From: a bacterium
GTDB taxonomy: Bacteria > Patescibacteriota > Minisyncoccia > Phycocordibacterales > JAUSHB01
Assembly (NCBI GenBank): GCA_030648955.1
Contig: JAUSHB010000010.1
Location: 13,556-77,555, forward strand
Length of the DNA: 64,000 nucleotides
Reading direction: 5' to 3'
In this document: piece after piece, positions 21,048 to 45,257 of the stretch
Layout of the letters: each line of letters opens with the position of its first letter
How positions within the stretch are numbered: the first letter of the stretch is position 1
Notes under the pieces: generated by a model
What the model was told of the DNA's origin: nothing
Databases searched by the model: none
What the model saw: the letters and a program-made list of their open reading frames with translations, nothing else
Made by a program: the position numbers and the translations under genes

Positions 21048-24000
21048 CTAATACCCGACCAGTAACTGTCCTTTGTCTGTCATCACCGTAACCACCGCAA
21101 TTCCCGGCTTTGATATTTTTATTTTTTTACTTTTTCCCTCTTCAACCTCATCCACAATCTTGGTTTCGTTGATTGCTTGTTTATATTTCGTTTCAATTTT
21201 GCGCATATCCTTAAGATGAATTTCTTGAGAGAGTGACTTTAGTATATCATTTTTGAATTTCCATTCATATTCGAGTGTTGTTTTTGGTGTTGCTGTGGCA
21301 ATGCCATTGTAGATGATCGTATTAAAAACAACCTTAATTTCCGTGGGTTCTTCTTCGTACTCAAGGAAAGGGATGTTGGTTGTGTTGCCTGCTTCGTCGG
21401 TAATCGTGGTGCTGGTTGCGGTGGTGTTTACCGTAGTGGATGAGAGATTATCGATGCCCGTGATAAAAAATTTGTTGGCAGCGGGGTCAAAAGTAAAACG
21501 TGCTTCTGGTGGGGTTGCATCATAGATAGTGGTACCGCCAAGAGTTGGTTTAAGTGTGGAATCGATTGTGTTATCGTTGTTGAAATCAATCGCGAGTGTA
21601 GTCGTAGTTGAAAGTACTCCTGTCCATGTAAGAGTCACTTGTGTGGTTGTAGCAGTGGGAATAGCTTCGTAGGTGGTGGAAGCCATGACAATGTCGCCAC
21701 GAAGCTCTTCAAGGTCAAGAGTGAACGAACCTGAAGCGTAGGCATCAAGTTTTACGGTATGCAAAGTATCGGCAGAAACAATGATAATTTTGGTATCACC
21801 AAGAGTGTAGTAAGTACTACCCTTGATGCCTTCTTCAATCAATCCCGTGGTCGTCGAGATACCAGTATGGTTGCCTGCTTGGTCATAGATGTTGAGGTTG
21901 AGGGGTGAATGAAGTTGATACTTGATATATGGTTTTGTGGAGACAAGTAATGAAGAATCATTGGTAATATATTGTTCAGGGGTCGAACTGCTTATGACAA
22001 TCGAATGGATGAAGGAGCGAAGGGGATCAACTTCAAGAATATTTTTGTGCTCACGGTCAATTGTTGATGTTAAATTGTTATACTTTCCCAAATCCACCCA
22101 CCACTTTTGCGTCATTGAAGAAGTCGGCATGAGATGCGCGCTTTCTTCCACCACTGTTTTGTCGCCGTTTAACGTTACCTTATCTTGAATTTTAATGACA
22201 TCAACATATCTCTCACAAATAATTGGTTGTGGTGCGCCGATTGTTTGCGGTGTCGATGGGGGATCTCTGGGGATACATACTTTATTCTTTTCGTAACGAA
22301 TCACCGCGGGAGTATATATCCCCCACCCTGCGATTTCATAAACCATAGTCGATGTGGCAGGAGTCCATTGGTCGAGCGTCGCGTGGATTGTTTCGGCGTT
22401 TGAAAGCAGGGTTGAATTTCCAATCGCAGGAGAAGAAAGATCGTCATAGGCAGGTACAGCCCGTCCGTCACCGCCCGTGAGATAATCTGCAAGCTCATCA
22501 TAGGTGTCGATGGTATCGCCATAACGTGCTGAGATTACGGGACTCACTGCGTTTCCTCCAAACTCAATGAGCGGCGTTGAGGAGCCGATGTATGCACGCG
22601 ATGGAAGGAGATTGTATCCCGTTGGCATATTGTGCAAAAGGTCACGAACGCGCTCCGCATCCATGAGAAAACCTAATGGACCAAGACTTCCGCCATGAAG
22701 AAGCTGGCCGACAGTGTCAGGCGTTCCTGCTTGGGGAACGGCGACAAAAATAACATTGTCGATTCTGTCGTAGAGGGGGTCGTTGGCCTCCTTCAGTTTT
22801 TGAATGAGCGCCTTGGTGACGAGTCCACCGTTTGAATGCGCAACGATGGTGACCTTTTGGGTCTTCGACGAATCCGCGAGTATTTTCAACTGCTTGTATA
22901 GGTAACTATTTGTGAACCCTTGCGGGGTACTGTATGAAATCCCGTCAGTTGATGTTGCGCCATTCTGAAGAATATCCTCGAGTGAGAGCCGCCAATCGTA
23001 TGCGATCATAGAGTAATCGTTGATGATGTGATCGGCTTCTTTCCACTTCTTGAGGTCGTTTATAAACGATTGGTAAATATTGGAAGCATATACTTCATCA
23101 ATAACACCAGCGGTGCCTTCTTTTGTGTATAACGAGTTAATGCTCTTCCCTGCTCCATTGAGTACGAGGCGTTGGTGATTGCAGTCCAGTATTGAAACCC
23201 AGCGTTCTTTTTCATTGTTAAATACTCCACAATCGCTGCTTTTTTCAAACAGTCTTGATCCCATCATCCCCGGCAAAAACAGAACGTTGGAATAACAGTC
23301 GGCGGTGCAGGGAGGGGGTATATTGTTCCACCCATCTTGTGTTGTCCACGGAAGATTATCCTGCCCGCCATAAAAAATATATGGCGAATCGCAGAAGTTG
23401 TCGTTATTTGAATCACTACAACCCTCTGCTGTCGTATCAAAGTTACTCCAGTAGTTGCCACCGATTGATGGGGTGAGATTAAAAACATTACCGTTGCCAC
23501 CATTGACACGAGCCTGCGTAAAGTTGCCGATAAGATTGTTGTTGTAAACTTGGTTGTTGTTGGAAGAGAATAGATAGATTCCGTAAACGTTATTGTTTGA
23601 TGCAGTGTTGTTTGTCAGAATGTTGTTACTGGATAAGGAAAATAAGATTCCATAAAAGTTGTTCCCTAACACAGTGTTGTTTGTCAGTGTGTTATTGTTT
23701 GAGGAACCATAGAGGAGAATTCCGGAGTTGTTGTTTGATGCGATATTGTTTGTCAGAACGTTATTGCTACTGGAAGAGTCGAGATAGATTCCAGAGTTAT
23801 TGTTTGAGGAATTTACGTTCGCAATTGTGGATGAGCTTGTTTGTATGAGAAATAAGCCGTTGTTTTTCTTCGTTATCGAACCGTCAATTGTGATATTGTT
23901 TATATTTGAACCGCCGGCGTTGCACAGTATCAATTCAGAAAAAGTTTCATTACTTAAGGTAACCGCGCTGTTGAAGTATCTGATTGGTCTCCCGCCGGAA

Positions 24001-24977
24001 CCAATAGTGTTGGTAATACTGTTGTCACAATGGCTATCTGACGATACTTGAACATGAAGGTCGTCGGAAGAGTTTTCCTGCGCAACATTGTTCATCAGAA
24101 TATTATTACTGGAAAAGTAGAGGTAGATTCCAAAACCATTTGAACTCGCGGTATTGTTGGTTAAAGTGTTGTTGTTACTAAGATATCCAAGAAAGATTCC
24201 GTAACTATTTGAGGTCGTAGTGTTGTTGGTTAAAGTGTTGTTGGATCCACGGAGTAAGATTCCATTCAAAAATTTCTTAACATTTAAATTCTTGATAGTA
24301 ACGCCAGTCCTTCCAGAAAATCCGGAAAGATAGACACCGTTTCCCGTATTGCTCCCGGTTAACATGTGGCTGTTGCCGTCAAGCGTTATGCCATTGCTGT
24401 CGATCTGAATGGTCTCGGTTAAATCCACATTCAGTGTGCAGGTTTTAATAGCGGAATCCCAGTTGCCAATCAAAGTGCAATCGCCGCCAGTGGCATCATC
24501 ACGAATGAACTTGGTGCTTTTGTGGGTTTGGATAAAGACAATGTGGGGAGTTGAAATGTCTTGCGTGTATGAATATGCGCCGTTTTCGTCAGTGGTAAAT
24601 TGAGTCAGGTTGTGATAATTGTCTTCATATTTATAGTAAGTGGTTGAGGTAGTAAAACCATAAAGGGTGATCTGGGTTGAGGTTGCAATTAAAAGAGCGG
24701 GCGACTCAATCGTCATTGTTACCATGTTGGGAACCGACTCCATTCTAAGTTTGATTACTTCTGTGCTGTCTAAACTGATATTTAAATATGCGCTGTCGGT
24801 GATAGAAAAGTTTGCGCTCGTACCTTCTACGACGCCTGATCGTGTCGATGGTTCAAACGATGGCAACTCTTGAGCTCTTGCGCGATCAGCGAATAAGAAT
24901 ACCCCTGCGACAAAAACCGCCGCAAGTACAAGATGGGGCGCAAAGAAAAACTGTGATTTTAGGTTCGATATATTCAT
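21048..24977 (-). CDS. giant secreted multi-domain protein: signal peptide, parallel beta-helix repeats, lipase-like alpha/beta hydrolase, C-terminal beta-rich domains
   Basis: Signal peptide MNISNLKSQFFFAPHLVLAAVFVAGVFLFADRARA. Repeated N-N-x-[TL]-x-N-N-T-A-S-N-N / GIYL units indicate a right-handed beta-helix. The motif VLFLPGMMGSRL ... VTIVAHSNGGLV is a G-H-S-x-G nucleophile elbow of the PGAP1/LCAT-like lipase type. The C-terminal 400 aa are Thr-rich and Ig-like. Confidence 0.8.
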   Translation of the reverse strand: MNISNLKSQFFFAPHLVLAAVFVAGVFLFADRARAQELPSFEPSTRSGVVEGTSANFSITDSAYLNISLDSTEVIKLRMESVPNMVTMTIESPALLIATSTQITLYGFTTSTTYYKYEDNYHNLTQFTTDENGAYSYTQDISTPHIVFIQTHKSTKFIRDDATGGDCTLIGNWDSAIKTCTLNVDLTETIQIDSNGITLDGNSHMLTGSNTGNGVYLSGFSGRTGVTIKNLNVKKFLNGILLRGSNNTLTNNTTTSNSYGIFLGYLSNNNTLTNNTASSNGFGIYLYFSSNNILMNNVAQENSSDDLHVQVSSDSHCDNSITNTIGSGGRPIRYFNSAVTLSNETFSELILCNAGGSNINNITIDGSITKKNNGLFLIQTSSSTIANVNSSNNNSGIYLDSSSSNNVLTNNIASNNNSGILLYGSSNNNTLTNNTVLGNNFYGILFSLSSNNILTNNTASNNNVYGIYLFSSNNNQVYNNNLIGNFTQARVNGGNGNVFNLTPSIGGNYWSNFDTTAEGCSDSNNDNFCDSPYIFYGGQDNLPWTTQDGWNNIPPPCTADCYSNVLFLPGMMGSRLFEKSSDCGVFNNEKERWVSILDCNHQRLVLNGAGKSINSLYTKEGTAGVIDEVYASNIYQSFINDLKKWKEADHIINDYSMIAYDWRLSLEDILQNGATSTDGISYSTPQGFTNSYLYKQLKILADSSKTQKVTIVAHSNGGLVTKALIQKLKEANDPLYDRIDNVIFVAVPQAGTPDTVGQLLHGGSLGPLGFLMDAERVRDLLHNMPTGYNLLPSRAYIGSSTPLIEFGGNAVSPVISARYGDTIDTYDELADYLTGGDGRAVPAYDDLSSPAIGNSTLLSNAETIHATLDQWTPATSTMVYEIAGWGIYTPAVIRYEKNKVCIPRDPPSTPQTIGAPQPIICERYVDVIKIQDKVTLNGDKTVVEESAHLMPTSSMTQKWWVDLGKYNNLTSTIDREHKNILEVDPLRSFIHSIVISSSTPEQYITNDSSLLVSTKPYIKYQLHSPLNLNIYDQAGNHTGISTTTGLIEEGIKGSTYYTLGDTKIIIVSADTLHTVKLDAYASGSFTLDLEELRGDIVMASTTYEAIPTATTTQVTLTWTGVLSTTTTLAIDFNNDNTIDSTLKPTLGGTTIYDATPPEARFTFDPAANKFFITGIDNLSSTTVNTTATSTTITDEAGNTTNIPFLEYEEEPTEIKVVFNTIIYNGIATATPKTTLEYEWKFKNDILKSLSQEIHLKDMRKIETKYKQAINETKIVDEVEEGKSKKIKISKPGIAVVTVMTDKGQLLVGY

Positions 24978-30127: not shown

Positions 30128-31564
30128 TTATTCAAGTGCTTCAACGATGGTAATGTTCTTAGGATTTTTAGGAAAATTTGTCATCCAAAATGGCTGTATA
30201 ACTGCTTCTGCTTTCCAAATTGAAGCATATTGACTAATAACATTCTTAAATCCATCTTTTTTAGAAACACCCGTAAGTTCCCCCTTAAGTTTTTCTTGGT
30301 CAACATCCCACACAATAGAAGCTTGACCCGATATCACCAGAGAAATGTCTTTTAGATTTCCTGGATCAAGAATCTCGTGTTTGGGCTCCACATCAAGTTC
30401 CTCAATATTACGAATTAGCAAAGGACTTCCGTCATATGAGTCATCTATTTTTTTGACGATAAACCCACTAAGAATGCTTCTATTGAACATAACACCGTAC
30501 AGTGAGCCTTTTACCGTGATATGAGTCGGATTTTGAGGATTTATTGCCTCAAGGTCATTAAATATTATGAATATGGTGCTATCGTAGAGGATAAAACCCT
30601 CCGGAATCTGTGCTCGCGCTTTTTTAATGAGTTCACCTCGCAATGATTCTTTTAAGCGAGCAACTGCTTTATTTTGATCCTCTTCCGAAGGGACTTTTAC
30701 CTTGCCAGAAAACCCTCCCATCAAAGGAGTCTGGGATCGAGCATAAAATTTTGTATAACGGGGATCACCCTTAAAACCAGGAATGGTAAAATCTGATGGA
30801 CCACTGTTGTATTCTTCGCCCGGAGCGTCTCCATAAACTTTCGCTTCAACGCTTCCCGGGGTGGTTTTACCTCCCGCAACAGACATTCCGGGCACTACGA
30901 TTGAGTTATCAATACGATAAATTTTTCCGCTCTTTGATTCAAACCGTGTATTTTTAATCAATCGCTGACTTGCTGTACTATATTCGTTGTAAATTTTTAT
31001 TGTTCCCGAAGCTTTTTTTGTTATCTCTTTCTCAAGTGTTGCGGGAATATCTTCCGACATTTCTTCATTGGGGAGAGGAATCTTTTGGTAAGGAACGAAC
31101 CCTTCTTCGGTTGTATTTTCTCGCGCAACAATATCCAACTCAAGGGAAACAGATTTATTAAGTGGTATTATTTTAATTGTTGCTCCAAAAAAAATAGTGG
31201 AAAATGCAACACCAAGCGTGCCAACAATGACCACTACGGCAAGAATCCAAAGTACAAAATGAGAAGATTTTTTTTTGACATTATTTGAATTGCTTATCCG
31301 TGAAGACATACCGCTGCGAGAATGCTCGAAATCAGACACGTTCGATTCTGTGTGGTACGACTTCTTTATCAAGCGAGGAAGAAAATTTTCTGGCTGACCA
31401 CTTTGTAAAATCATTGGTGGTTTCTCGACAGTATCGTGTAAATCACGTGATTGTGTTGGGGCACTATTGGACGATGCACCAGGAATCTCACCTGAAACAT
31501 TTTTGAACCCTTCTTTCATCCTCTTGGAGGGAAACACGACATCCTGAATAATTCTTCTTGCCAT
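30128..31564 (-). CDS. single-pass membrane protein with a large extracytoplasmic domain (hypothetical; possibly PilN/O- or FtsQ-like)
   Basis: Cytoplasmic N-terminus of about 120 aa, then a TM segment FVLWILAVVVIVGTLGVAFSTIFFG, then about 330 aa of beta-rich domain. Confidence 0.55.
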   Translation of the reverse strand: MARRIIQDVVFPSKRMKEGFKNVSGEIPGASSNSAPTQSRDLHDTVEKPPMILQSGQPENFLPRLIKKSYHTESNVSDFEHSRSGMSSRISNSNNVKKKSSHFVLWILAVVVIVGTLGVAFSTIFFGATIKIIPLNKSVSLELDIVARENTTEEGFVPYQKIPLPNEEMSEDIPATLEKEITKKASGTIKIYNEYSTASQRLIKNTRFESKSGKIYRIDNSIVVPGMSVAGGKTTPGSVEAKVYGDAPGEEYNSGPSDFTIPGFKGDPRYTKFYARSQTPLMGGFSGKVKVPSEEDQNKAVARLKESLRGELIKKARAQIPEGFILYDSTIFIIFNDLEAINPQNPTHITVKGSLYGVMFNRSILSGFIVKKIDDSYDGSPLLIRNIEELDVEPKHEILDPGNLKDISLVISGQASIVWDVDQEKLKGELTGVSKKDGFKNVISQYASIWKAEAVIQPFWMTNFPKNPKNITIVEALE

Positions 31565-31596: not shown

Positions 31597-32787
31597 TTAT
31601 ATATGTCCGAGCTCGACAATACGATCAGCAAACAATGCTTCAACAACAATGAACGGGTCTTTTTCGGTCTGCGGACTGAAAATGGAGAATTTTCCCATGG
31701 TTGCATTATCGAGCAACGTGACTTCAAATGGTGATCCTGTTCCGGTAAATTCTCCTAGACTTGGGGATGTGAGACAATCAAAAAACCATGGAGCAACATC
31801 AGCGTCCGAAGTGAAGAAAACTGTATTCGGAAGTGAAATATCATCAGAAAGACTTCGGAGTCCCTCTTTGAGCGAATAGGTCCATTCCCCCTTTGATTCA
31901 TTAAGAATTTTTTGAATCTTTACCTTAGTACTATCGTTCGTCTTCCCTTCACGATACATGGTGTAGAGTGAGGCAACTTCTTCCGGTATCGTATTTAATC
32001 CACTTGATAGTCGTCGTAGTAAATAATTCTTCCCCAAGGGAAATGACGCCGTCTCGAGAAGAACATTGCTTTTCACCAATGATATGTCCGCAACTTCGCC
32101 ACTGATATCCATAAATAAGAAGTCGCTCTTGTGTGAGAAAATATCGCGTATCGTGCTAAATGCGGTAAGTGAAAATGAACTAAATTTAATATTTCGTGAA
32201 CCAAAAATTTTAGATACGCGAGATTTCACTGAACTCAATACTCTTTTGGGGACCATGCTGATGTAGAGTGATATCTCAAGATTTTTTGCACGCATGCCGT
32301 ACGGATTATCTGTAACATATCCATTCAACTTCATTTGAATGGTATGCGTTTCCATAATTTCTACTTCTTCCTCCCCCATACGTTTATACTTGCCAATATT
32401 GTGTGCCTTAAAACTTTCGATTTCACTCTCAACAAGATCATCAATACCATGTCTACTTACTGCAAATTCTTTACCTTGTTTCATCTTTATCACACGAGTC
32501 TGAGATACATACCATGGAGATGAAAAAACGCATAAAAAACTTCGTGGATTTTGCATTCCTGACTTCTGCATCCTTACCAACACCTTTTCAAGCGTCTCGA
32601 GCATAGAAGAAAGAAATCTCCCGAAATTAAGATCACTTTGAAATACCATACTTTCCCGAGCACTCCAAAGTATTTTTGGGGTAGAACCAGCCTCAAAGGA
32701 AATAAGCGCTCCACCAATACTCGCTGAACCAATATCAAAGACTGCAATGGTAGTCTTTTTGTCGGATTTTTTTAAAAAAGAGAACAT
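31597..32787 (-). CDS. actin-like ATPase (ASKHA fold; FtsA/PilM-like)
   Basis: Phosphate-1 motif IAVFDIGSASIGGAL and phosphate-2 motif FLFMDISGEVADISLV. It lies upstream of the membrane protein at 30128. Confidence 0.45.
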   Translation of the reverse strand: MFSFLKKSDKKTTIAVFDIGSASIGGALISFEAGSTPKILWSARESMVFQSDLNFGRFLSSMLETLEKVLVRMQKSGMQNPRSFLCVFSSPWYVSQTRVIKMKQGKEFAVSRHGIDDLVESEIESFKAHNIGKYKRMGEEEVEIMETHTIQMKLNGYVTDNPYGMRAKNLEISLYISMVPKRVLSSVKSRVSKIFGSRNIKFSSFSLTAFSTIRDIFSHKSDFLFMDISGEVADISLVKSNVLLETASFPLGKNYLLRRLSSGLNTIPEEVASLYTMYREGKTNDSTKVKIQKILNESKGEWTYSLKEGLRSLSDDISLPNTVFFTSDADVAPWFFDCLTSPSLGEFTGTGSPFEVTLLDNATMGKFSIFSPQTEKDPFIVVEALFADRIVELGHI

Positions 32788-37097: not shown

Positions 37098-37601
37098 TTA
37101 TTCGTTGTGGTGTTTGTTTTCCTGATTCGATCCACTATACAGCCCCTTAAACGTTCCCTGTTCAATATACCGCTCTTCAACAAACCACATTACCGTAAAA
37201 ATAAAGAGAGTGATGAGGGTCGCGATAAGCGCAAGAAGAAAAAGACCGAAACCAGACGCCATGCCGATTCCCGCAGCAACCCACAACCCCGCGGCAGTAG
37301 TAAGACCACTTAGGTGAGATTCTTTGAAGACAATGAGTCCTGCACCAAGAAAACCTATCCCTACAACGATTTGTGATGCCATACGAAGTGGATCAAATGA
37401 CACTTGCCCAAGATACCAACCGGAAACGATCAAAGAAATAATTACAAATAATGCCGCACCGATGGAAACGAGTGCATACGTTCGCACGCCGGCGGTCTTT
37501 CCCGCAACAGCGCGCTCAATACCAAGCAAAACCCCAAGAACCATCGCAATAAGAAGACGCGCAATGAGATCTATGTTTGAAATGAGAATGTGTTGATCCA
37601 T
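37098..37601 (-). CDS. MgtC/SapB family membrane protein
   Basis: LIAMVLGVLLGIERAVAGKTAGVRTYALVSIGAALFVI. Confidence 0.75.
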   Translation of the reverse strand: MDQHILISNIDLIARLLIAMVLGVLLGIERAVAGKTAGVRTYALVSIGAALFVIISLIVSGWYLGQVSFDPLRMASQIVVGIGFLGAGLIVFKESHLSGLTTAAGLWVAAGIGMASGFGLFLLALIATLITLFIFTVMWFVEERYIEQGTFKGLYSGSNQENKHHNE

Positions 37602-37740: not shown

Positions 37741-37818
37741 TCCATTCCTTTAATTAATAGTACTAGAAAGGATGGGGACGTGCAAATAAGGGGGGTGTGG
37801 TGAGTATCGCCACACGAG

Positions 37819-38439
37819 TTATTTAAGCACCTTCTGCAATATAGGATAAATACGATCTGCAATAATGGCATACCCGGAATTATTTGGATGCACAGAATCA
37901 CTCATATAGTTAGTATTCCCCAGTAATCCCTTGAGCACATTGGGGACATACGCACTGCCTGTTTTTTCCGCAAGCGACTGCAAGTCAGATTCATATCCAT
38001 CAGTAATCAGTCCGCCACGCACACCAAGGAGAATGACCACGGCACCCGCATCTTGTATGGTGATAATTATTTGTTCAAGATTCTTAAGTGTTTCTGTTTT
38101 GGGAACACGCCTGAGAAAATCATTTCCTCCCAAAAGCACCATGACCACCTTGGGATTTTTTGAAAGTACACTCTCAATGCGCGTTAATGCCATTGCAGTC
38201 GTATCGCCTGCATATCCAAAATTTTCAATTGGCGTATTGATGCGTTCTGAAAGAAGCGACACGAAATCATTCCCTTCTGTGGATCCCACACCGCGCGCGA
38301 GACTATCTCCAAAAACAATGACTGCTTCACCCGACGATGGATAGTTTTTTATATCGTAACCCCTGTTCATTCCAAACCAAAGCGCGACTGCAATAAATAT
38401 GAGAACAACTGCAACGCCTGTAATTTTTGAGTATTTCAT
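37819..38439 (-). CDS. SGNH/GDSL hydrolase
   Basis: Block I VIVFGDSLARG, block III GGNDF, block V DSVHPN; N-terminal TM anchor. Confidence 0.75.
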   Translation of the reverse strand: MKYSKITGVAVVLIFIAVALWFGMNRGYDIKNYPSSGEAVIVFGDSLARGVGSTEGNDFVSLLSERINTPIENFGYAGDTTAMALTRIESVLSKNPKVVMVLLGGNDFLRRVPKTETLKNLEQIIITIQDAGAVVILLGVRGGLITDGYESDLQSLAEKTGSAYVPNVLKGLLGNTNYMSDSVHPNNSGYAIIADRIYPILQKVLK

Positions 38440-38447
38440 GGAAACAC

Positions 38448-38810
38448 TTATACCAGCAGTGAACTATGAGCAAAGGTAATGATGGCAACAACAATCCCAG
38501 CAAATATAAATGAAACGAGAACGGCACCAGAAGCGATATCTTTACTTGCTCCGATTAATTCATGATGTTCAGGGTGAAGTTTTTTAAATGCAGTTTCCAA
38601 TGCAGTATTGGTAAGTTCTGTAACGAGAATAAGTGCGTAGGCAAGAATAAGAAATAGGAATTCCGTCTCTGTGAGGGGCCACAATAAAAATGCTATTGCG
38701 ATAAATGGAAAACAACCCCAAACTTCCATGTGAAAACTTTTATCGGATTGATATGCAAATCGTATTCCCCGCATTGCATGACATATCGATATGTAGATTT
38801 TTTTAATCAT
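38448..38810 (-). CDS. dgkA: diacylglycerol kinase / undecaprenol kinase (DgkA family)
   Basis: 120 aa. EFLFLILAYALILVTELTNTALE ... HELIGASKDIASGAVLVSFIFAGIVV closely parallels the E. coli DgkA sequence ...EILNSAIE ... HELSGRAKDMGSAAVL. Confidence 0.8.
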   Translation of the reverse strand: MIKKIYISICHAMRGIRFAYQSDKSFHMEVWGCFPFIAIAFLLWPLTETEFLFLILAYALILVTELTNTALETAFKKLHPEHHELIGASKDIASGAVLVSFIFAGIVVAIITFAHSSLLV

Positions 38811-38843: not shown

Positions 38844-39698
38844 TTAATCCTGAACAGGTAAACACAACTCTCCTGCTTCATCCAAAACATTTTTAATTTC
38901 GTTTTCAGTCATTCCATGTTCTCGTAAAATATTCTGATTACGTTCCACATCGCGACACAGCACGACATTGTTTTGAAGTAGGTGATTTTTTGAATTACTG
39001 GGAAGCGTAGACAGGCAGGTGAGCGGATGAACACCAGTATTTAAAATAAGATCCTGGAGATTCCCCTTTTGGGGATAATTCCAGCCAATAAGCGTGAGTC
39101 CGGCGCATGTTCCATAGTCAATTGCTTGCGAAGTTAGTTTTGTATTTGTCATAAGCCACCCCTCATGTACTCGCGGACTTCTTCCCTCTTTTTCCGCACG
39201 CGCTTCGTGAGCCTTGGTGATATCATCAAAGCGAGCCTTTACGTAAAGCGCCACCTTCACATCACTTTTAATCCCATGACTGTTGTGAAATTTGCATTCT
39301 ACAAAAATATGCTTATCTCCTTTTTCGGCAAGAATATCAACTTCGTGTTCAACGCAATATCCGGGCAAAATACCTCCTACCTTTACAGAATACCCTTGCG
39401 CTTTCAAAATCTCACCGACAAAACGTTCAAAAGGAAACCCTGATGGCCCGAGTTGCATTATGGCTTGCCTCAAACTATACCGTGCCGCAACAGGCGGACG
39501 GTGGCGTCGTAGAAGCGTAAATGCATGGTGATAAATGTCAGAAGTTTTTACATCATCACCGAGCTCACTTTCAACGTGTGCGATGATTTCCTCCGTAAGA
39601 GCTGATGGCGCACCAGCACTTTTAAGAGACATGCGAAGTTTGTTTGCCGAAAATTCCTCGCGTTCTCCTGATGCTTTTGTAATCCATCGTGGGGACAT
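38844..39698 (-). CDS. ATP-cone domain fused to an Mrr-like (PD-(D/E)xK) restriction-endonuclease-fold domain
   Basis: N-terminal ITKASGEREEFSANKLRMSLKSAGA ... is an ATP-cone, as in NrdR/RNR. The central FERFVGEILKAQGYSVKV ... HEVDILAEKGDKHIFVECKFHN gives the D ... E-x-K Mrr_cat pattern. Confidence 0.7.
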   Translation of the reverse strand: MSPRWITKASGEREEFSANKLRMSLKSAGAPSALTEEIIAHVESELGDDVKTSDIYHHAFTLLRRHRPPVAARYSLRQAIMQLGPSGFPFERFVGEILKAQGYSVKVGGILPGYCVEHEVDILAEKGDKHIFVECKFHNSHGIKSDVKVALYVKARFDDITKAHEARAEKEGRSPRVHEGWLMTNTKLTSQAIDYGTCAGLTLIGWNYPQKGNLQDLILNTGVHPLTCLSTLPSNSKNHLLQNNVVLCRDVERNQNILREHGMTENEIKNVLDEAGELCLPVQD

Positions 39699-39702
39699 AA
39701 TT

Positions 39703-40359
39703 TTAATTACACGTTGCTTGTTTAATTATTTCTGGATTATCAAACATTACTGTCTCAAGAATATCACTAAATTTAGTTTCTGGATAATCATTTGTGCCAG
39801 AGAAAATGAGAAGTCCCCCTTGTAAAATAATTGCGTATACTTCGGGTCTTCCTGGATTGGCTCTACCATCTCCTACAAAATAAGAAGGTATGCTCTGTAT
39901 CCCTAAGGGGAGGGTGCGTTCACAACTAGGGTTGCCGTCATGAATCCAGCGATTTGTATTCCGATCATAATGTAATTTCTCACTTGCCGCTGCAATTGAG
40001 AATTTAGTATCGAAAGGAGCCATATAGATTTCATGACAGGAAAATTCATTTTCACCGCAGTTCGGAAAAGAAATAGTTATCGAATCATCTTTATTAACTT
40101 GAACACTATTTTCTGCAGGATATTTAAACGATATGTTGTATTTTGTGGAAGAATATGTCTTCCAGCTAGATATCGCTGGGTCATTATCCATAAATAATGA
40201 AGAAGTAGATTGGGTTTGCAGAATATCTTCTGTGGTAAATATTCGATTGTCTGAAGCTAATTTAATTCTCTCCCTACTATAATACCAGACCCCTCCCCAT
40301 AAAATTATTAAGCCCGTAACAAGCAATATGGTTATTGAAATAATAGTTTTATTTTTCAT
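39703..40359 (-). CDS. membrane-anchored/secreted hypothetical protein
   Basis: N-terminal TM segment IISITILLVTGLIILWGGVWYY followed by a Cys-containing beta-rich domain. Confidence 0.45.
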   Translation of the reverse strand: MKNKTIISITILLVTGLIILWGGVWYYSRERIKLASDNRIFTTEDILQTQSTSSLFMDNDPAISSWKTYSSTKYNISFKYPAENSVQVNKDDSITISFPNCGENEFSCHEIYMAPFDTKFSIAAASEKLHYDRNTNRWIHDGNPSCERTLPLGIQSIPSYFVGDGRANPGRPEVYAIILQGGLLIFSGTNDYPETKFSDILETVMFDNPEIIKQATCN

Positions 40360-40387: not shown

Positions 40388-41542
40388 CTAATCAACAACC
40401 CCTCCACCAAGACACTCATCTCCATCATAAAGAACCAGTGATTGCCCAGGAGAAGCAATCTGGGAATTAGCGAAAATGATTTCAGCGTTTTTTATATCAA
40501 CGTGAACAATAGTGCACGTTTCGAGTGGTTGACGGTACCGCACACGCGCTGTATACCGATCTCCTTTTTTTGGAGAAACACCCCTTATCCAATTTATGTG
40601 TGAAATGTTGACTCGTTTACGTTCTCCTCCACCTGCAATCTCAAATGGCTCATGCGATACATCAACTCCGCTAATCGGACCGTGCGATACCGTAATTGTA
40701 TTTTTAATAATATCTTTTTCTACAACATAATACGGCACATCATGAGTCCCCTTTTGGGTTATCGTAAATCCATGTCGCTCGCCCAATGTAAAAAATACAG
40801 CACCCTTGTGTTCGCCTATAATTACCCCTTTTACATCAAGCACGTCACCAACTTTTTCCTTTATGAAATGTTTTAGAAAATCTTTCATGTCAAGTTTCCC
40901 CATAAAGCAGAGCCCTTGACTGTCTTTTTTTTCGGCAGTTGGCAAGCCAAATTTCTTCGCAAGTTTTCGCACTTCAGGTTTTTCATATCCGCCGACAGGA
41001 AATAATGTTTTTGAAAGTTCTTTTTGTGTGAGCGTCCATAAAAAATATGACTGGTCTTTTTCTGTATCAACGCCGGCGAGTAATGTATATCCAACCGTAG
41101 ATTTTTTCTGCGTAGGTCTGCGTTTAGTCTGCAAGAATCTACGGTCGCCACGGGCGACACGCGCGTAATGCCCCGTTGCGACAAAATCCGCACCTGCAGC
41201 AATGGCTTTCTTAAAAAACGCACCAAATTTAACGTACTGATTACACATCACATCCGGATTGGGGGTTCTTCCTTTTTTGTATTCGGCGATCATATAATCA
41301 ACCACCTCTTTTTTATATTCCTTTTCAAGATCAAGGGTAATGAATGGAATATCAAGATGCGCCGCTACGCGCATCGCATCAAAACGATCTTCTTTCCATG
41401 TACAGGGCAAGAAGTCCGGCTGCCAGACCTTAATAAAAACCCCGGTGACATCATATCCCTCCTTTTTAAGAAGCGCCGCGGAAACAGAAGAATCAACTCC
41501 CCCTGAAAGTCCCACAAAAACCGTACCCTTGCTTTTATTCAT
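40388..41542 (-). CDS. mnmA: tRNA-specific 2-thiouridylase MnmA
   Basis: PP-loop VFVGLSGGVDSSVSA; catalytic Cys residues; 384 aa. Confidence 0.9.
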   Translation of the reverse strand: MNKSKGTVFVGLSGGVDSSVSAALLKKEGYDVTGVFIKVWQPDFLPCTWKEDRFDAMRVAAHLDIPFITLDLEKEYKKEVVDYMIAEYKKGRTPNPDVMCNQYVKFGAFFKKAIAAGADFVATGHYARVARGDRRFLQTKRRPTQKKSTVGYTLLAGVDTEKDQSYFLWTLTQKELSKTLFPVGGYEKPEVRKLAKKFGLPTAEKKDSQGLCFMGKLDMKDFLKHFIKEKVGDVLDVKGVIIGEHKGAVFFTLGERHGFTITQKGTHDVPYYVVEKDIIKNTITVSHGPISGVDVSHEPFEIAGGGERKRVNISHINWIRGVSPKKGDRYTARVRYRQPLETCTIVHVDIKNAEIIFANSQIASPGQSLVLYDGDECLGGGVVD

Positions 41543-42838: not shown

Positions 42839-44065
42839 TTACACAGGAAGGTTTGGAGGGGGTTCGGCTTTACGCGACTCAATACGTCCGAAAGTCGGAG
42901 TCTGAAGAACACCGCCGGGGAAATGGTAGATGGTAGCCAATTCTTCGGTGTTTAATATAAACGGTTTCCATTGAAACGGCTTGTAAAAATATCCCCGACT
43001 TTTATATGCCTTAAATAAATCAATTTTTTTCTTTGTTACGCGATACTTGTTGTAATCCTGCCATGGAAAATCAAATGACGTAACTCGTGTAGGCTTAAAG
43101 CCATTGAGATCATTGGTCGTATATTGTCGTAAAATCCCCATAAGTCCTTTGATGTGCGTACCATTAAATGAGTCTTTTTTTGCAAGATACATCGCGCGAA
43201 TTCCACAATCAAATCCTAATTTGGAAATACTGCGATTCAGTGCTTTGATTAAATCTTGTTCTGCCGTGGTAAGAAATCTCCCCGTTTTACCCTCTCCTTT
43301 CGGTTGTGATTTTTCGGTAATTTTACTTATCAAATCTTTGCCCTCATCTTTCCAACTTCGCATTCCCCACCCCATAAAACTATCCGGGTCCCGGTGACGA
43401 TCTTCGGCAGCACGAATTAATATCTGAATCCAAAATTGTTCATCCTTCTCCATTGTACCCAAAAATTCAAGCGTTGCTGTCATGGGGTCAGTTTTGAATT
43501 CTTCCTTGGTTGATTCTCTATCAAGACCATAATCGACATACGTTTTGATCGGATATGCATCTTCTTTTGAAAGAACAAACTCGGTTCCGAAAATTTCCCA
43601 CGAAGATTCTTTGCCGACATATTTTACATAACGAGTATAGTCGGGAACTTCATAAATTTCTACTTGAGGGTATTGTGCGTAAATCTGCGACTCAATAAGA
43701 TTTTTGTACACTTTATTGGTACGAATGAAAAACTTCACCGCGCCACCGAGTGACACCATTTCAAGAGAAAACCAATCTCGCACACGACCCTTGAAATACC
43801 AGTCATACCACGTCCCCTTGCTTGTTTGAAAAAATACATTAAGTAAAAGCTCCATCGCAAGGGGTGGTTTTGTAATTTCTCTTGGAAGTCTTACCTCAAG
43901 GATGACCCACTCAATCTTTGAAAGATATACCGCGCGAATATAATAGAGCCAAATGCGCCACAACACAATGAGAAGTACGAAAGGACCCCAAAAAACAAGA
44001 TAGCGAAAGGCTGCTTCGTAGATACTTAAAACTTGCCCGAATAGTTGAAAAAGCTGTTCAAACAT
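42839..44065 (-). CDS. hypothetical membrane-anchored protein (two N-terminal TM segments plus about 330 aa of soluble domain)
   Basis: No recognised motif. Confidence 0.5.
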   Translation of the reverse strand: MFEQLFQLFGQVLSIYEAAFRYLVFWGPFVLLIVLWRIWLYYIRAVYLSKIEWVILEVRLPREITKPPLAMELLLNVFFQTSKGTWYDWYFKGRVRDWFSLEMVSLGGAVKFFIRTNKVYKNLIESQIYAQYPQVEIYEVPDYTRYVKYVGKESSWEIFGTEFVLSKEDAYPIKTYVDYGLDRESTKEEFKTDPMTATLEFLGTMEKDEQFWIQILIRAAEDRHRDPDSFMGWGMRSWKDEGKDLISKITEKSQPKGEGKTGRFLTTAEQDLIKALNRSISKLGFDCGIRAMYLAKKDSFNGTHIKGLMGILRQYTTNDLNGFKPTRVTSFDFPWQDYNKYRVTKKKIDLFKAYKSRGYFYKPFQWKPFILNTEELATIYHFPGGVLQTPTFGRIESRKAEPPPNLPV

Positions 44066-44225: not shown

Positions 44226-45257
44226 CTATGCCGTAACTCGATATTTCCCTTTCTCGTCTCGTGCAAAATAATTGCTGTTTTGAAGATTTACCATAATAGT
44301 ATTTTCTTTCACCTGTCGTTCTTTGAGCACACGATCTACAATTTCTTTTTTTGTAAGGGGTCCCTCTTTTTTGAGAATCTTGCCAATAACATCACGCACA
44401 ACACCGCCTTCATAGCCCCATTGAGAGAGAGCGTAGAGACCTCGTCCAACAAGAACAAAACGTTTGTCTTTTATAAGTTCGTTGTGTGTTGTTGCAATAT
44501 GAGCACGCTTTCCAAAAACATCTGATATTGTTTTCGCGACATCGGTAAAATGCATGGGATTTCCTTGTTTTCGAAGCACTAAAAAAGCGTAATCTCTCAC
44601 ACCACGTGCAGACACATTGGGTGATGTTGAAACGCCCCATTCCCCCATAAGATTTCTTTTAATCTTTTTTGAAAGAAAAAGCCATCGTTTGAGAATTTCT
44701 TCATTTTTATATTGTTCTGAAATGTCTTTGAGGTGGTCAAGAAAGGAAGCGATCATTTCTGCTTCAGAAATAAGATCGTCGTCTGAAATATTTTCAAATA
44801 ATTTTTTGAGAGATTGATGAACTCTTTCGGCTATATTTTTATCGACAACCCAGCGATTCTTAAAGTGTTCATCTTCTTTGTGTTTCTCAAAAAGATGCCC
44901 GAGTACGAGTAAAAAGTTTATATTATTCTGAATAATTTTATCTGTTGAAATGTGCGTCAAAAGGCTTTCTTCGTCCACTACTCCACCCAATGAAACAAGT
45001 ACATCCTTAAGGTCGCTAAATGATTCCTGTGATTGCTTGAAAACTTCAGATTTTCTAATAATTTCAAGTGCAGCATTTTCAATCTGACGCACTCTCTCTC
45101 GTGTAATTGAGTACTTTTTCCCTATTGCCTCAAGCGTCATTTTCTTCCCATCACTCAATCCAAAACGGCCCTCGATTACGTTTCGGGCTCGCTCCGGTAT
45201 TACGGTAAGAAGTTTCTTAACAACTTGTTTGGGCTTGAAGGCTATAGTTTTTGCCAT
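44226..45257 (-). CDS. DNA-binding protein with an N-terminal sigma-70 region-4-like HTH and a C-terminal HARE-HTH-like winged helix
   Basis: MTLEAIGKKYSITRERVRQIENAAL is a classic region-4 signature. C-terminal MHFTDVAKTISDVFGKRAHIATTHNELIKDKRFVLVGRGLYALSQWGY fits the HARE-HTH / RpoE-N pattern (RFV-x-VG-x-G-x-Y-x-L-x-x-W). Confidence 0.55.
   Translation of the reverse strand: MAKTIAFKPKQVVKKLLTVIPERARNVIEGRFGLSDGKKMTLEAIGKKYSITRERVRQIENAALEIIRKSEVFKQSQESFSDLKDVLVSLGGVVDEESLLTHISTDKIIQNNINFLLVLGHLFEKHKEDEHFKNRWVVDKNIAERVHQSLKKLFENISDDDLISEAEMIASFLDHLKDISEQYKNEEILKRWLFLSKKIKRNLMGEWGVSTSPNVSARGVRDYAFLVLRKQGNPMHFTDVAKTISDVFGKRAHIATTHNELIKDKRFVLVGRGLYALSQWGYEGGVVRDVIGKILKKEGPLTKKEIVDRVLKERQVKENTIMVNLQNSNYFARDEKGKYRVTA

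What the first reader, a model, noticed from the sequence alone, without database searches (positions are those of the whole stretch)
38844..39698. ATP-cone sensor domain fused to an Mrr-type PD-(D/E)xK nuclease domain
The N-terminal 90 aa are a clear ATP-cone, the allosteric (d)ATP-sensing module of NrdR and ribonucleotide reductases. The next 110 aa carry the Mrr_cat D...E-x-K nuclease signature. About 80 aa of unknown function follow. A nuclease gated by nucleotide-pool sensing is an attractive candidate for an infection-triggered (nucleotide-depletion) or growth-state-triggered DNase. I am not aware of functional characterisation of this fusion. The gene is monocistronic between dgkA and a secreted protein.
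Basis: partly seen in the sequence, partly recalled or inferred. Interest (0 to 1): 0.6.

Follow-up and report, generated by a model that had tools for sequence, protein, structure and literature searches.

The report
ATP-cone-gated housekeeping nuclease, uncharacterised family
The gene really does encode a nucleotide-sensing ATP-cone fused to a nuclease and a DNA-binding tail, but it is an ordinary member of a large, ancient, uncharacterised family of bacteria and archaea that behaves like a housekeeping gene linked to nucleotide recycling, not like an anti-phage weapon.

Summary
Observation confirmed. Window 38844-39698 (-) encodes a 284-aa protein with an ATP-cone, an Mrr-type PD-(D/E)xK nuclease core and a C-terminal domain. 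The C-terminal domain is not unknown: it is the AF1548-like HhH-type domain (PF22357; PDB 1Y88). Catalytic E91/D121/E134/K136 and the NrdR-validated nucleotide-binding positions K8/E14/F16/K20 are conserved across the family.

The fusion is not special to this locus. It is the standard architecture of a family with about 900 clusters at 50% identity, found in Patescibacteria, Bacteroidota, Chlamydiota, Dependentiae and Archaea. Even "cone-less" AF1548 appears to be a truncated ORF or construct.

The gene is not monocistronic (4-bp and 33-bp gaps, same strand). In Paceibacteria it sits in a fixed housekeeping block (MltG-MnmA-gene-MgtC-AlaRS) and evolves as slowly as MnmA or AlaRS. It has no PADLOC match, no phage hits, and is found on 2 of 72,556 plasmids.

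Elsewhere it repeatedly heads a cassette of beta-CASP nuclease, AMP/thymidine-phosphorylase-family enzyme and PRPP synthetase, or lies next to RNR, PNP or AMP phosphorylase genes.

Best reading: an adenine-nucleotide-gated endonuclease serving nucleic-acid turnover or nucleotide salvage. No biochemical data exist.

The parts
38844..39698 (-). Complete ORF, 284 aa: ATP-cone, then PD-(D/E)xK nuclease, then HhH-type C-terminal domain
39456..39686 (-). ATP-cone, aa 5-81 (beta-hairpin plus helical bundle). Nucleotide-binding positions K8 (39675-39677), E14 (39657-39659), F16 (39651-39653), K20 (39639-39641)
39426..39452 (-). Near-invariant junction motif LGPSGFPFE (aa 83-91), joining the last cone helix directly to the first nuclease helix and ending in catalytic E91
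   Evidence: G84 148/151, P85 145, G87 148, F90 149, E91 150; alignments
39084..39440 (-). PD-(D/E)xK (Mrr_cat) nuclease core, aa 87-205. D121 at 39336-39338; E134-C-K136 at 39291-39299. Further invariant residues E119, R156, D159, N185
38865..39059 (-). AF1548-like C-terminal helical domain (HhH / RAD51-N-like), aa 214-278; inferred DNA-binding module
39703..40359 (-). Upstream co-directional 218-aa ORF with an N-terminal membrane anchor. Lineage-specific insertion between MnmA and the target; stop codon 4 bp before the target ATG
37819..38810 (-). Downstream co-directional dgkA (38448-38810) and GDSL hydrolase (37819-38439). Gaps of 33 and 8 bp; hairpin at 37795-37815 after the GDSL gene. 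Probable same transcription unit
37098..37601 (-). MgtC-family gene, the conserved downstream syntenic neighbour in Paceibacteria
40388..41542 (-). mnmA, the conserved upstream syntenic neighbour (70 of 85 loci)

Best explanation
The gene encodes a soluble three-domain enzyme. Its parts are an NrdR-like ATP-cone that binds adenine nucleotides (ATP, dATP or both), a metal-dependent PD-(D/E)xK endonuclease core with the catalytic set E91/D121/E134/K136, and a C-terminal HhH-type domain that holds nucleic acid, most likely DNA. The last cone helix runs through a near-invariant LGPSGFPFE junction straight into the helix that carries catalytic E91. Nucleotide occupancy of the cone is therefore inferred to switch the nuclease on or off. 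It could do this by re-positioning that helix or by changing the oligomeric state, which is how all studied ATP-cones work. Physiologically it is a vertically inherited housekeeping enzyme, not a defence effector. Its most likely job is to couple breakdown or processing of nucleic acid to the state of the adenylate/dNTP pool, that is, nucleic-acid turnover and nucleotide salvage. Shown: the domain architecture, the intact catalytic and nucleotide-binding residues, the conservation, synteny and neighbourhoods. Inferred: nucleotide binding, nuclease activity, substrate, the direction of regulation and the salvage role.
For: Architecture and residues. Housekeeping behaviour rests on several results. 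There are 898 clusters at 50% identity, and about 142 of 151 top representatives carry the cone. At least 596 species genomes have a relative. The LeuRS-sigma-DUF8128-MltG-MnmA-gene-MgtC-AlaRS synteny is fixed. Median identity is 54.7%, against MnmA 56.7 and AlaRS 63.7, with bits per residue equal to AlaRS. The family is absent from phages and nearly absent from plasmids, and has no PADLOC match. The nucleotide-metabolism link comes from neighbourhoods. An identical, translationally coupled cassette (ATP-cone protein, beta-CASP MBL nuclease, archaeal-type thymidine/AMP-phosphorylase-family enzyme, ribose-phosphate diphosphokinase) occurs in Pontibacter (Bacteroidota) and Criblamydia (Chlamydiota). 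It recurs whole or in part in about 12 loci. Bona fide AMP phosphorylase (566 and 609 bits, cutoff 535) lies directly adjacent in L143 and L159. PNP_UDP_1 overlaps the gene in L094, with cytidine deaminase and a CNT nucleoside transporter nearby. Ribonucleotide reductase lies directly downstream in L150 and L115, and an nrdR-RNR pair lies about 3 kb away in L118 and L123. AAA_28/dNK-like kinases are adjacent in L060 and L089. Some CPR bacteria are predicted to run an AMP-phosphorylase/RuBisCO nucleotide-salvage pathway (PMC7304191).
Against: There is no biochemistry for any family member. In this window none of the salvage partners is adjacent or present anywhere in the 64 kb. In 31 of 54 diverse loci the neighbours fit neither recurring theme, and I had no formal genomic background for enrichment. 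The cassette's beta-CASP partner carries the RNA-type RMMBL domain, so the pathway substrate could be RNA, whereas the HhH domain suggests DNA. E14 is conserved in only 100 of 142 sequences, and the arginine of the classical cone 'KR' motif is absent, though it is also absent in E. coli NrdR. Other recurrent neighbours, such as P-type ATPases, CorA, MscS, ZIP, CsoR/ArsR and MgtC, are not explained by a salvage role.
Confidence: 0.5

Rival explanations
1. DNA repair or recombination endonuclease. On this view it is a structure-specific or damage-specific nuclease, like NucS, Hjc or XPF in layout (nuclease plus HhH), licensed by the ATP-cone only when dNTPs or energy for repair synthesis are available.
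Against: The repair-type neighbours are scattered and each is confined to one lineage. The only multi-phylum conserved cassette contains catabolic or salvage enzymes, not repair proteins. The NucS N-terminal domain and the Hjc family threshold are not met.
Confidence: 0.2
2. Anti-phage or abortive-infection effector. Phage-induced nucleotide depletion empties the ATP-cone and unleashes a DNase.
For: The design of a sensor domain plus a PD-(D/E)xK effector parallels Can2/Card1, NucC and Cap4, which are among the structural neighbours of the nuclease domain. Fic/DOC, HicA or ParE genes are occasionally nearby.
Against: No significant PADLOC hit. No relatives in IMG/VR or in phage records, and only 2 of 72,556 plasmids. 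Fixed housekeeping synteny. Conservation equal to MnmA and AlaRS. Near-universal single architecture across bacteria and archaea. No methyltransferase, Cas or other defence genes in about 180 inspected loci.
Confidence: 0.08
3. NrdR-like DNA-binding regulator. The cone senses ATP/dATP, and the nuclease-fold plus HhH domains only bind DNA to control transcription, for example of RNR or of adjacent transporter genes, without physiological cleavage.
For: The best structural matches for the cone are the NrdR cones. The gene is adjacent to RNR genes in several lineages. It is the first or second gene of operons that follow ArsR- or CsoR-type regulators.
Against: All four catalytic residues are kept in 150 of 151 representatives, which is hard to explain without catalysis. 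A genuine NrdR coexists about 3 kb away in L118 and L123. There is no Zn-ribbon.
Confidence: 0.08
4. Accessory to cation or metal homeostasis. The protein senses Mg-ATP or energy charge and acts together with ion pumps or channels encoded next to it.
For: Translationally coupled neighbours appear in distant lineages. These are a P-type IIA ATPase in Bacteroidota with a 14-nt overlap, CorA and DUF389 in Ferroglobus placidus, an MscS channel in Archaeoglobus, MgtC in 48 of 85 Paceibacteria loci, and ZIP, CsoR and P1B ATPases in metagenomic loci. Near-invariant C115/C198/H118/H138 could form a metal site.
Against: Only 9 of 54 diverse loci have such neighbours, and ion-transport genes are common, so enrichment is modest. 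The ATPases are Ca/PMR1-like and below equivalog cutoffs, not MgtA-type. H118 is Q in several archaeal members. No mechanism links a nuclease active site to transport.
Confidence: 0.08
5. Classical type IV (modification-dependent) Mrr-like restriction endonuclease, as NCBI's 'restriction endonuclease' name implies.
For: Mrr_cat is above the Pfam threshold. AspBHI and MspJI catalytic domains are structural neighbours.
Against: There is no Mrr_N, SRA or other modified-DNA reader domain; the N-terminus is an ATP-cone. The distribution, synteny and conservation are unlike restriction genes.
Confidence: 0.03

Closest known systems
AF1548 of Archaeoglobus fulgidus (PDB 1Y88, structural-genomics 'protein of unknown function')
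   Different: The crystallised chain lacks the ATP-cone and the LGPSGFPFE/E91 segment. That appears to be an artefact of a short ORF call or construct. A protein 99% identical over the solved region (P0420) is 265 aa with a full cone, as are all other archaeal relatives. No function was ever assigned.
NrdR (Zn-ribbon plus ATP-cone repressor of ribonucleotide reductase genes)
   Different: No Zn-ribbon. The cone is N-terminal, not C-terminal, and about 8 residues shorter. The effector is a catalytically intact nuclease. It coexists with true NrdR.
ATP-cones of ribonucleotide reductases (NrdA, NrdD, NrdB of Leeuwenhoekiella)
   Different: The regulated enzyme is a nuclease rather than a reductase. 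Which nucleotide activates and which inhibits is unknown.
Ligand-gated PD-(D/E)xK defence nucleases (Can2/Card1, NucC, Cap4, Cdn1)
   Different: The sensor is an ATP-cone for a housekeeping metabolite, not CARF or SAVED for a cyclic-oligonucleotide alarm signal. There is no CRISPR or CBASS context and no PADLOC membership.
Mrr / MspJI / AspBHI type IV restriction enzymes; NucS/EndoMS; Hjc
   Different: Their substrate-recognition domains (Mrr_N, SRA, NucS-N) are absent. The Hjc HMM threshold is not met (E=0.11). The genomic behaviour is housekeeping rather than restriction-like.
XPF/Mus81-type nucleases (from my own knowledge, not tested here)
   Same: A PD-(D/E)xK nuclease domain followed by a C-terminal HhH DNA-binding module.

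Membership tests
ATP-cone (PF03477) | Profile HMM score above the curated threshold | tested here: met
   28.6 bits against 25.8, aa 6-76. The family profile also hits NrdR and RNR cones in the PDB at E=0.04-1.
ATP-cone (PF03477) | Fold: beta-hairpin cap plus helical bundle, superposable on NrdR and RNR cones | tested here: met
ATP-cone (PF03477) | Nucleotide-binding residues conserved (NrdR V48/K50/E56/F58/K62 equivalents) | tested here: met
   I6/K8/E14/F16/K20 by alignment. Counts 136, 140, 100, 140 and 138 of 142.
ATP-cone (PF03477) | Actual binding of ATP or dATP, with allosteric or oligomeric response | not testable with these tools
   Requires ITC and SEC-MALS on purified protein.
Mrr_cat / PD-(D/E)xK nucleases (PF04471) | Profile HMM above threshold and restriction-endonuclease-like fold | tested here: met
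Mrr_cat / PD-(D/E)xK nucleases (PF04471) | Catalytic E...D...(D/E)xK residues intact | tested here: met
   E91, D121, E134 and K136 are present, each in 150 of 151 representatives.
Mrr_cat / PD-(D/E)xK nucleases (PF04471) | Metal-dependent phosphodiester cleavage | not testable with these tools
   Requires an enzyme assay.
Type IV Mrr-like restriction enzyme | Modified-DNA reader domain (Mrr_N, SRA or similar) plus patchy, mobile distribution | tested here: not met
   The N-terminus is an ATP-cone and no reader domain is found. Fixed synteny and slow evolution. Found on 2 of 72,556 plasmids.
AF1548-like family (PDB 1Y88; PF22357 C-terminal domain) | Significant sequence and fold match over the nuclease plus C-terminal domain | tested here: met
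Known anti-phage defence systems (PADLOC-DB) | Match to a defence-protein model | tested here: not met
   Best E-value is 0.022, not significant.
Known anti-phage defence systems (PADLOC-DB) | Defence-island or mobile-element context, with patchy distribution | tested here: not met
   Housekeeping, nucleotide or ion-transport neighbours in about 180 loci. No phage hits.
NrdR | [quoted passage not shown] | tested here: not met
   No Zn-ribbon, and the cone is N-terminal. True NrdR coexists in L118 and L123.
Hjc Holliday-junction resolvase (PF01870) | Profile HMM above threshold | tested here: not met
NucS/EndoMS | Two-domain NucS architecture (N-terminal DNA-binding half-barrel plus C-terminal nuclease) | tested here: not met

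The most novel reading that the evidence does not exclude
This family is a third functional class of ATP-cone proteins, after ribonucleotide reductases and NrdR. On this reading it is a pan-prokaryotic endonuclease gated by adenylate or dATP that opens nucleic acid for turnover. It works with a beta-CASP nuclease, an AMP/thymidine-phosphorylase-type enzyme and PRPP synthetase, so that polynucleotide is recycled into nucleotides or carbon according to the energy and dNTP state. In genome-reduced Paceibacteria that depend on salvage, it has become a core, syntenic gene.
Probability: 0.3. Interest if true: 0.75.

Novelty: new member of a known kind. Interest (0 to 1): 0.45.

Why it matters
ATP-cones have been studied only as regulators of dNTP synthesis, in RNR enzymes and the NrdR repressor. 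Here the same sensor sits on a catalytically intact nuclease, in a family that spans Archaea, CPR bacteria, Bacteroidota, Chlamydiota and Dependentiae. The family is kept as a slow-evolving core gene in some of the smallest known genomes. If the cone gates DNA or RNA breakdown according to ATP/dATP, that would add a degradative arm to nucleotide-pool homeostasis. It would also assign a function to a widespread 'conserved hypothetical' that has had a partial crystal structure since 2004. For genome annotation, the current labels ('restriction endonuclease', 'Holliday junction resolvase', 'NrdR family', 'ATPase') are all unsupported. The finding should not be counted as a candidate defence system.

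Tried and rejected
1. Defence hypothesis. PADLOC gave nothing significant. The IMG/VR scan and the phage tblastn were empty. The plasmid tblastn gave 2 hits, which turned out to be metabolic cassettes.

2. A specific Mg2+ link (MgtC, CorA, P-type ATPase). NCBIfam shows the Bacteroidota ATPases are closest to Ca/PMR1-SERCA types and below all equivalog cutoffs, not MgtA. Only 9 of 54 diverse loci have ion or metal neighbours. I kept this as a minor rival only.

3. AF1548 as a natural cone-less variant. Rejected: its 99%-identical relative and all archaeal homologues carry the cone. Most 'short' representatives are fragments from ~1-kb contigs.

4. NrdR replacement. Rejected because true NrdR coexists.

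5. The single-sequence search of the cone against the PDB found nothing. The family profile was needed.

6. Alignment A2 was too diverse for the genome scan, so A1 was used instead.

7. The afdb50 fold library was unavailable.

8. Model coordinates are not exposed. I could not measure cone-to-active-site contacts or test whether C115/C198/H118/H138 form a metal site.

9. Literature searches found no paper on this fusion: ATP-cone with restriction endonuclease, Mrr, nuclease, endonuclease or AMP phosphorylase, and 'ATP cone domain-containing protein'.

Full report
**1. What is in the sequence**

Window 38844..39698 (minus strand) is a clean 284-aa ORF. Pfam places three domains above their curated thresholds:
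- ATP-cone, aa 6-76: 28.6 bits, cutoff 25.8.
- Mrr_cat, aa 87-204: 26.5 bits, cutoff 21.
- AF1548-like_C, aa 225-277: 24.6 bits, cutoff 23.9.

**2. Functional residues**

AF1548's predicted catalytic D38/E51/K53 (PMC1821046) map to D121/E134/K136 here. A fourth acidic residue, E91, sits at the start of the first core helix. I aligned 151 sequences: the window protein plus the 150 best representatives of 50%-identity clusters. Each of E91, D121, E134 and K136 is present in 150 of 151. E119, R156, D159, N185, P209 and P225 are equally fixed.

For the cone, mutagenesis of S. coelicolor NrdR showed that V48, K50, E56 and K62 are needed for nucleotide binding, and F58 lines the adenine pocket (PMC9110341). 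The family profile aligns these positions with I6, K8, E14, K20 and F16. Among the 142 cone-bearing representatives they are conserved as follows:
- I/V6: 136 of 142.
- K8: 140 of 142.
- E14: 100 of 142, plus 16 with Q or D.
- K20: 138 of 142.
- F/Y16: 140 of 142.

The cone is therefore under selection to bind an adenine nucleotide. The cone's last helix is joined to the catalytic helix by a near-invariant LGPSGFPFE motif (aa 83-91). This suggests tight mechanical coupling between sensor and active site, which is an inference.

**3. The fusion is the family norm, not a local novelty**

- The window protein finds 3,952 clusters at 90% identity.
- A Bacteroidota homologue finds 6,658.
- An exhaustive HMMER scan of 1.84 billion representatives with only the nuclease plus C-terminal part finds 898 clusters at E<=1e-3 and 293 at E<=1e-30.
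- Of the top 150, about 141 have the ~85-residue N-terminal cone. Most of the 'short' ones are fragments from ~1-kb contigs.

Searching with the crystallised AF1548 fragment gave an unexpected result. The 99%-identical protein P0420 is 265 aa with a complete cone, and all archaeal relatives are three-domain proteins of 260-280 aa. These come from Archaeoglobus, Geoglobus, Ferroglobus, Aenigmarchaeota, Nanoarchaeota and Hadesarchaea. The 'cone-less' AF1548 is thus most likely a too-short ORF call or construct.

Database names are inconsistent: 'ATP cone domain-containing protein', 'restriction endonuclease', 'ATPase', 'Holliday junction resolvase' and 'NrdR family'. No paper in the searchable library deals with the fusion.

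**4. Local context**

The gene is not monocistronic. On the minus strand the order and gaps are as follows:
- mnmA, then a 28-bp gap.
- 218-aa membrane-anchored ORF, then a 4-bp gap.
- Target, then a 33-bp gap.
- dgkA, then an 8-bp gap.
- GDSL hydrolase, followed by a hairpin and a 217-bp gap.
- mgtC.

No terminator-like site lies inside the string. The wider block is LeuRS, a sigma70_r4/HARE-HTH protein, a DUF8128-position ORF, MltG, MnmA, then MgtC and AlaRS. The same block occurs in other Parcubacteria at about 57% identity.

**5. Housekeeping behaviour**

Of 85 loci held at that point (the 80 kept from that scan plus 5 fetched), MnmA is directly upstream on the same strand in 70, MgtC is downstream in 48, and AlaRS follows in 57. 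The exceptions are mainly non-CPR genomes.

In 36 fully syntenic loci, median identity to the window protein compares as follows:
- Target: 54.7%.
- MnmA: 56.7%.
- AlaRS: 63.7%.
- MltG: 49.0%.
- MgtC: 52.9%.

Bits per residue are 1.15 for the target and 1.14 for AlaRS. There is no significant PADLOC match, no relative in IMG/VR, none in 50,697 phage records, and only 2 among 72,556 plasmids. This is the opposite of what defence genes show.

**6. Contexts outside Paceibacteria**

*Bacteroidota* (Cytophagales, Chitinophagales, Saprospirales). The homologue is translationally coupled to a type IIA P-type ATPase with a 14-nt overlap, and/or followed by a ~455-aa beta-CASP MBL nuclease. An ArsR-type regulator often precedes it. 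The locus often lies in metal-efflux islands.

*Two cultured organisms from different phyla.* Pontibacter actiniarum and Criblamydia sequanensis share an identical cassette: ATP-cone protein, beta-CASP MBL hydrolase, ~500-aa thymidine-phosphorylase-family protein, then ribose-phosphate diphosphokinase. The stops and starts overlap in Criblamydia. NCBIfam classifies the phosphorylases as archaeal-type (ARCH_P_rylase and PRK04350 above cutoff), just under the AMP-phosphorylase equivalog cutoff. The phosphorylases directly adjacent to the homologue in L143 and L159 pass that cutoff, at 566 and 609 bits against 535. The cassette, whole or partial, occurs in about 12 loci.

*Other nucleotide-related neighbours:*
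- PNP_UDP_1, overlapping the gene, with cytidine deaminase and a CNT transporter nearby.
- AAA_28/dNK-like kinases.
- Ribonucleotide reductase directly downstream in L150 and L115.
- nrdR followed by an RNR gene about 3 kb away in L118 and L123.

*DNA-metabolism neighbours.* These are DnaA, Lhr, an SSB-like protein, RuvB, UvrA, 3-methyladenine glycosylase and a DHH protein. They appear in single lineages.

*Ion-transport neighbours.* These also recur: CorA and DUF389 in Ferroglobus, MscS in Archaeoglobus, and ZIP, CsoR and P1B ATPases in metagenomic loci.

Of 54 diverse loci of at least 4 kb, 14 carry a nucleotide/DNA panel gene, 9 carry an ion/metal panel gene, and 31 carry neither. So there is no obligate partner. 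I also had no formal background for enrichment.

**7. Interpretation**

The safest statement is that this is an adenine-nucleotide-sensing, catalytically competent PD-(D/E)xK endonuclease with an HhH-type DNA-binding tail. It is inherited vertically as a housekeeping gene.

Of the physiological roles considered, nucleic-acid turnover or nucleotide salvage has the only multi-phylum conserved operon behind it: beta-CASP nuclease plus NMP/nucleoside phosphorylase plus PRPP synthetase. It also has links to RNR, PNP and AMP phosphorylase. It fits the salvage-dependent lifestyle of CPR bacteria, some of which are predicted to run an AMP-phosphorylase/RuBisCO pathway (PMC7304191).

By analogy with RNR and NrdR, the cone would switch activity through conformational or oligomeric change. 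The direction of the switch (ATP on and dATP off, or the reverse) cannot be predicted. I put this at about 0.5 overall. Confidence is high for the architecture and for 'not defence', and moderate to low for the specific salvage role.

The rivals, in order, are:
- dNTP-licensed repair or recombination nuclease: 0.2.
- Defence effector: 0.08.
- NrdR-like regulator: 0.08.
- Cation-homeostasis accessory: 0.08.
- Type IV restriction enzyme: 0.03.

**8. Verdict**

The locus is an ordinary orthologue of a large, catalogued but functionally uncharacterised family, so I rate it 'new member of a known kind'. Interest is moderate at 0.45. The window's gene itself is unremarkable, but the family is an attractive and experimentally tractable unknown, with cultured hosts and a partial structure. 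Its current database names are all unsupported.

Noticed in passing
PDB 1Y88 / P0420 (L096:5001-5798): The crystallised 'AF1548' chain starts right after the FEK of the conserved LGPSGFxFE motif, so it lacks the ATP-cone and the E91 equivalent. A 99%-identical Archaeoglobus protein is 265 aa with a full cone. The PDB/ORF definition is probably N-terminally truncated.
   Followed up: partly
window 39084-39440 (aa C115, H118, H138, C198): Two cysteines and two histidines flanking the catalytic strands are near-invariant (C115 143/151, C198 145/151, H118 142, H138 142). They could form a metal site or a disulfide. H118 is Q in several archaeal members.
   Followed up: partly
L071, L077, L086-L091 (Bacteroidota loci): The homologue's stop overlaps by 14 nt the start of a type IIA (Ca/PMR1-SERCA-like) P-type ATPase. 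An ArsR-type HTH or a small ORF often overlaps its start. These loci lie inside RND/Cus-Czc, multicopper-oxidase and P1B-ATPase metal islands. This coupling is not explained by the salvage hypothesis.
   Followed up: partly
L095 (Ferroglobus placidus CP001899) and L096/L097 (Archaeoglobus): Archaeal homologues are translationally coupled to CorA plus DUF389 (Ferroglobus) or to an MscS-type channel preceded by DUF432 (Archaeoglobus). This is a second, independent association with ion channels.
   Followed up: partly
L126, L148, L149, L152, L156: In one uncultured lineage the homologue sits directly downstream of dnaA (in L126 and L152 after one small intervening ORF) and, where the contig extends, upstream of a PilB-type T2SSE ATPase, that is, at the presumed replication-origin region.
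   Followed up: no
L089:4712-5020 and L093:4712-5020: A ~102-aa ORF (weak DUF5676 hit in L093) overlaps the start of the homologue by 20 nt, both in a Bacteroidota-type locus and in Dependentiae. It may be a conserved small partner.
   Followed up: no
window 39703-40359 (-): 218-aa ORF with an N-terminal hydrophobic anchor and no Pfam hit. It is inserted between mnmA and the target only in this lineage, and ends 4 bp before the target ATG.
   Followed up: partly
window 44226-45257 (-): 343-aa protein combining Sigma70 region 4 (N-terminal) with a HARE-HTH domain. It is conserved in the same syntenic position across Paceibacteria. This is an unusual sigma-like architecture.
   Followed up: no
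window 42839-44065 (-): 408-aa ORF occupying the position of the DUF8128 (PF26449) gene in syntenic loci. tblastn detects it in 61 of 85 loci, yet it gives no hit in the local Pfam scan at E<=0.001.
   Followed up: partly
window 30128-31564 and 31597-32787 (-): Two adjacent ORFs of 478 and 396 aa with no Pfam family at E<=1e-5. Similar unannotated 404-aa and 453-aa genes follow AlaRS in L004 and L005.
   Followed up: no
window 21048-24977 (-): 1,309-aa protein with NosD/right-handed beta-helix repeats and an LCAT/DUF7379-like lipase region. Probably a large surface protein.
   Followed up: no
window 1-64000: No tRNA, tmRNA or Rfam family reached threshold anywhere in the 64 kb. GC content is 36-46%, and most genes are on the minus strand.
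   Followed up: no
window 58123-60468 (-): HMA-domain P1B (copper-type) ATPase next to a DsbD-like membrane protein (61104-63590). It lies 19 kb from the target and is not adjacent.
   Followed up: no
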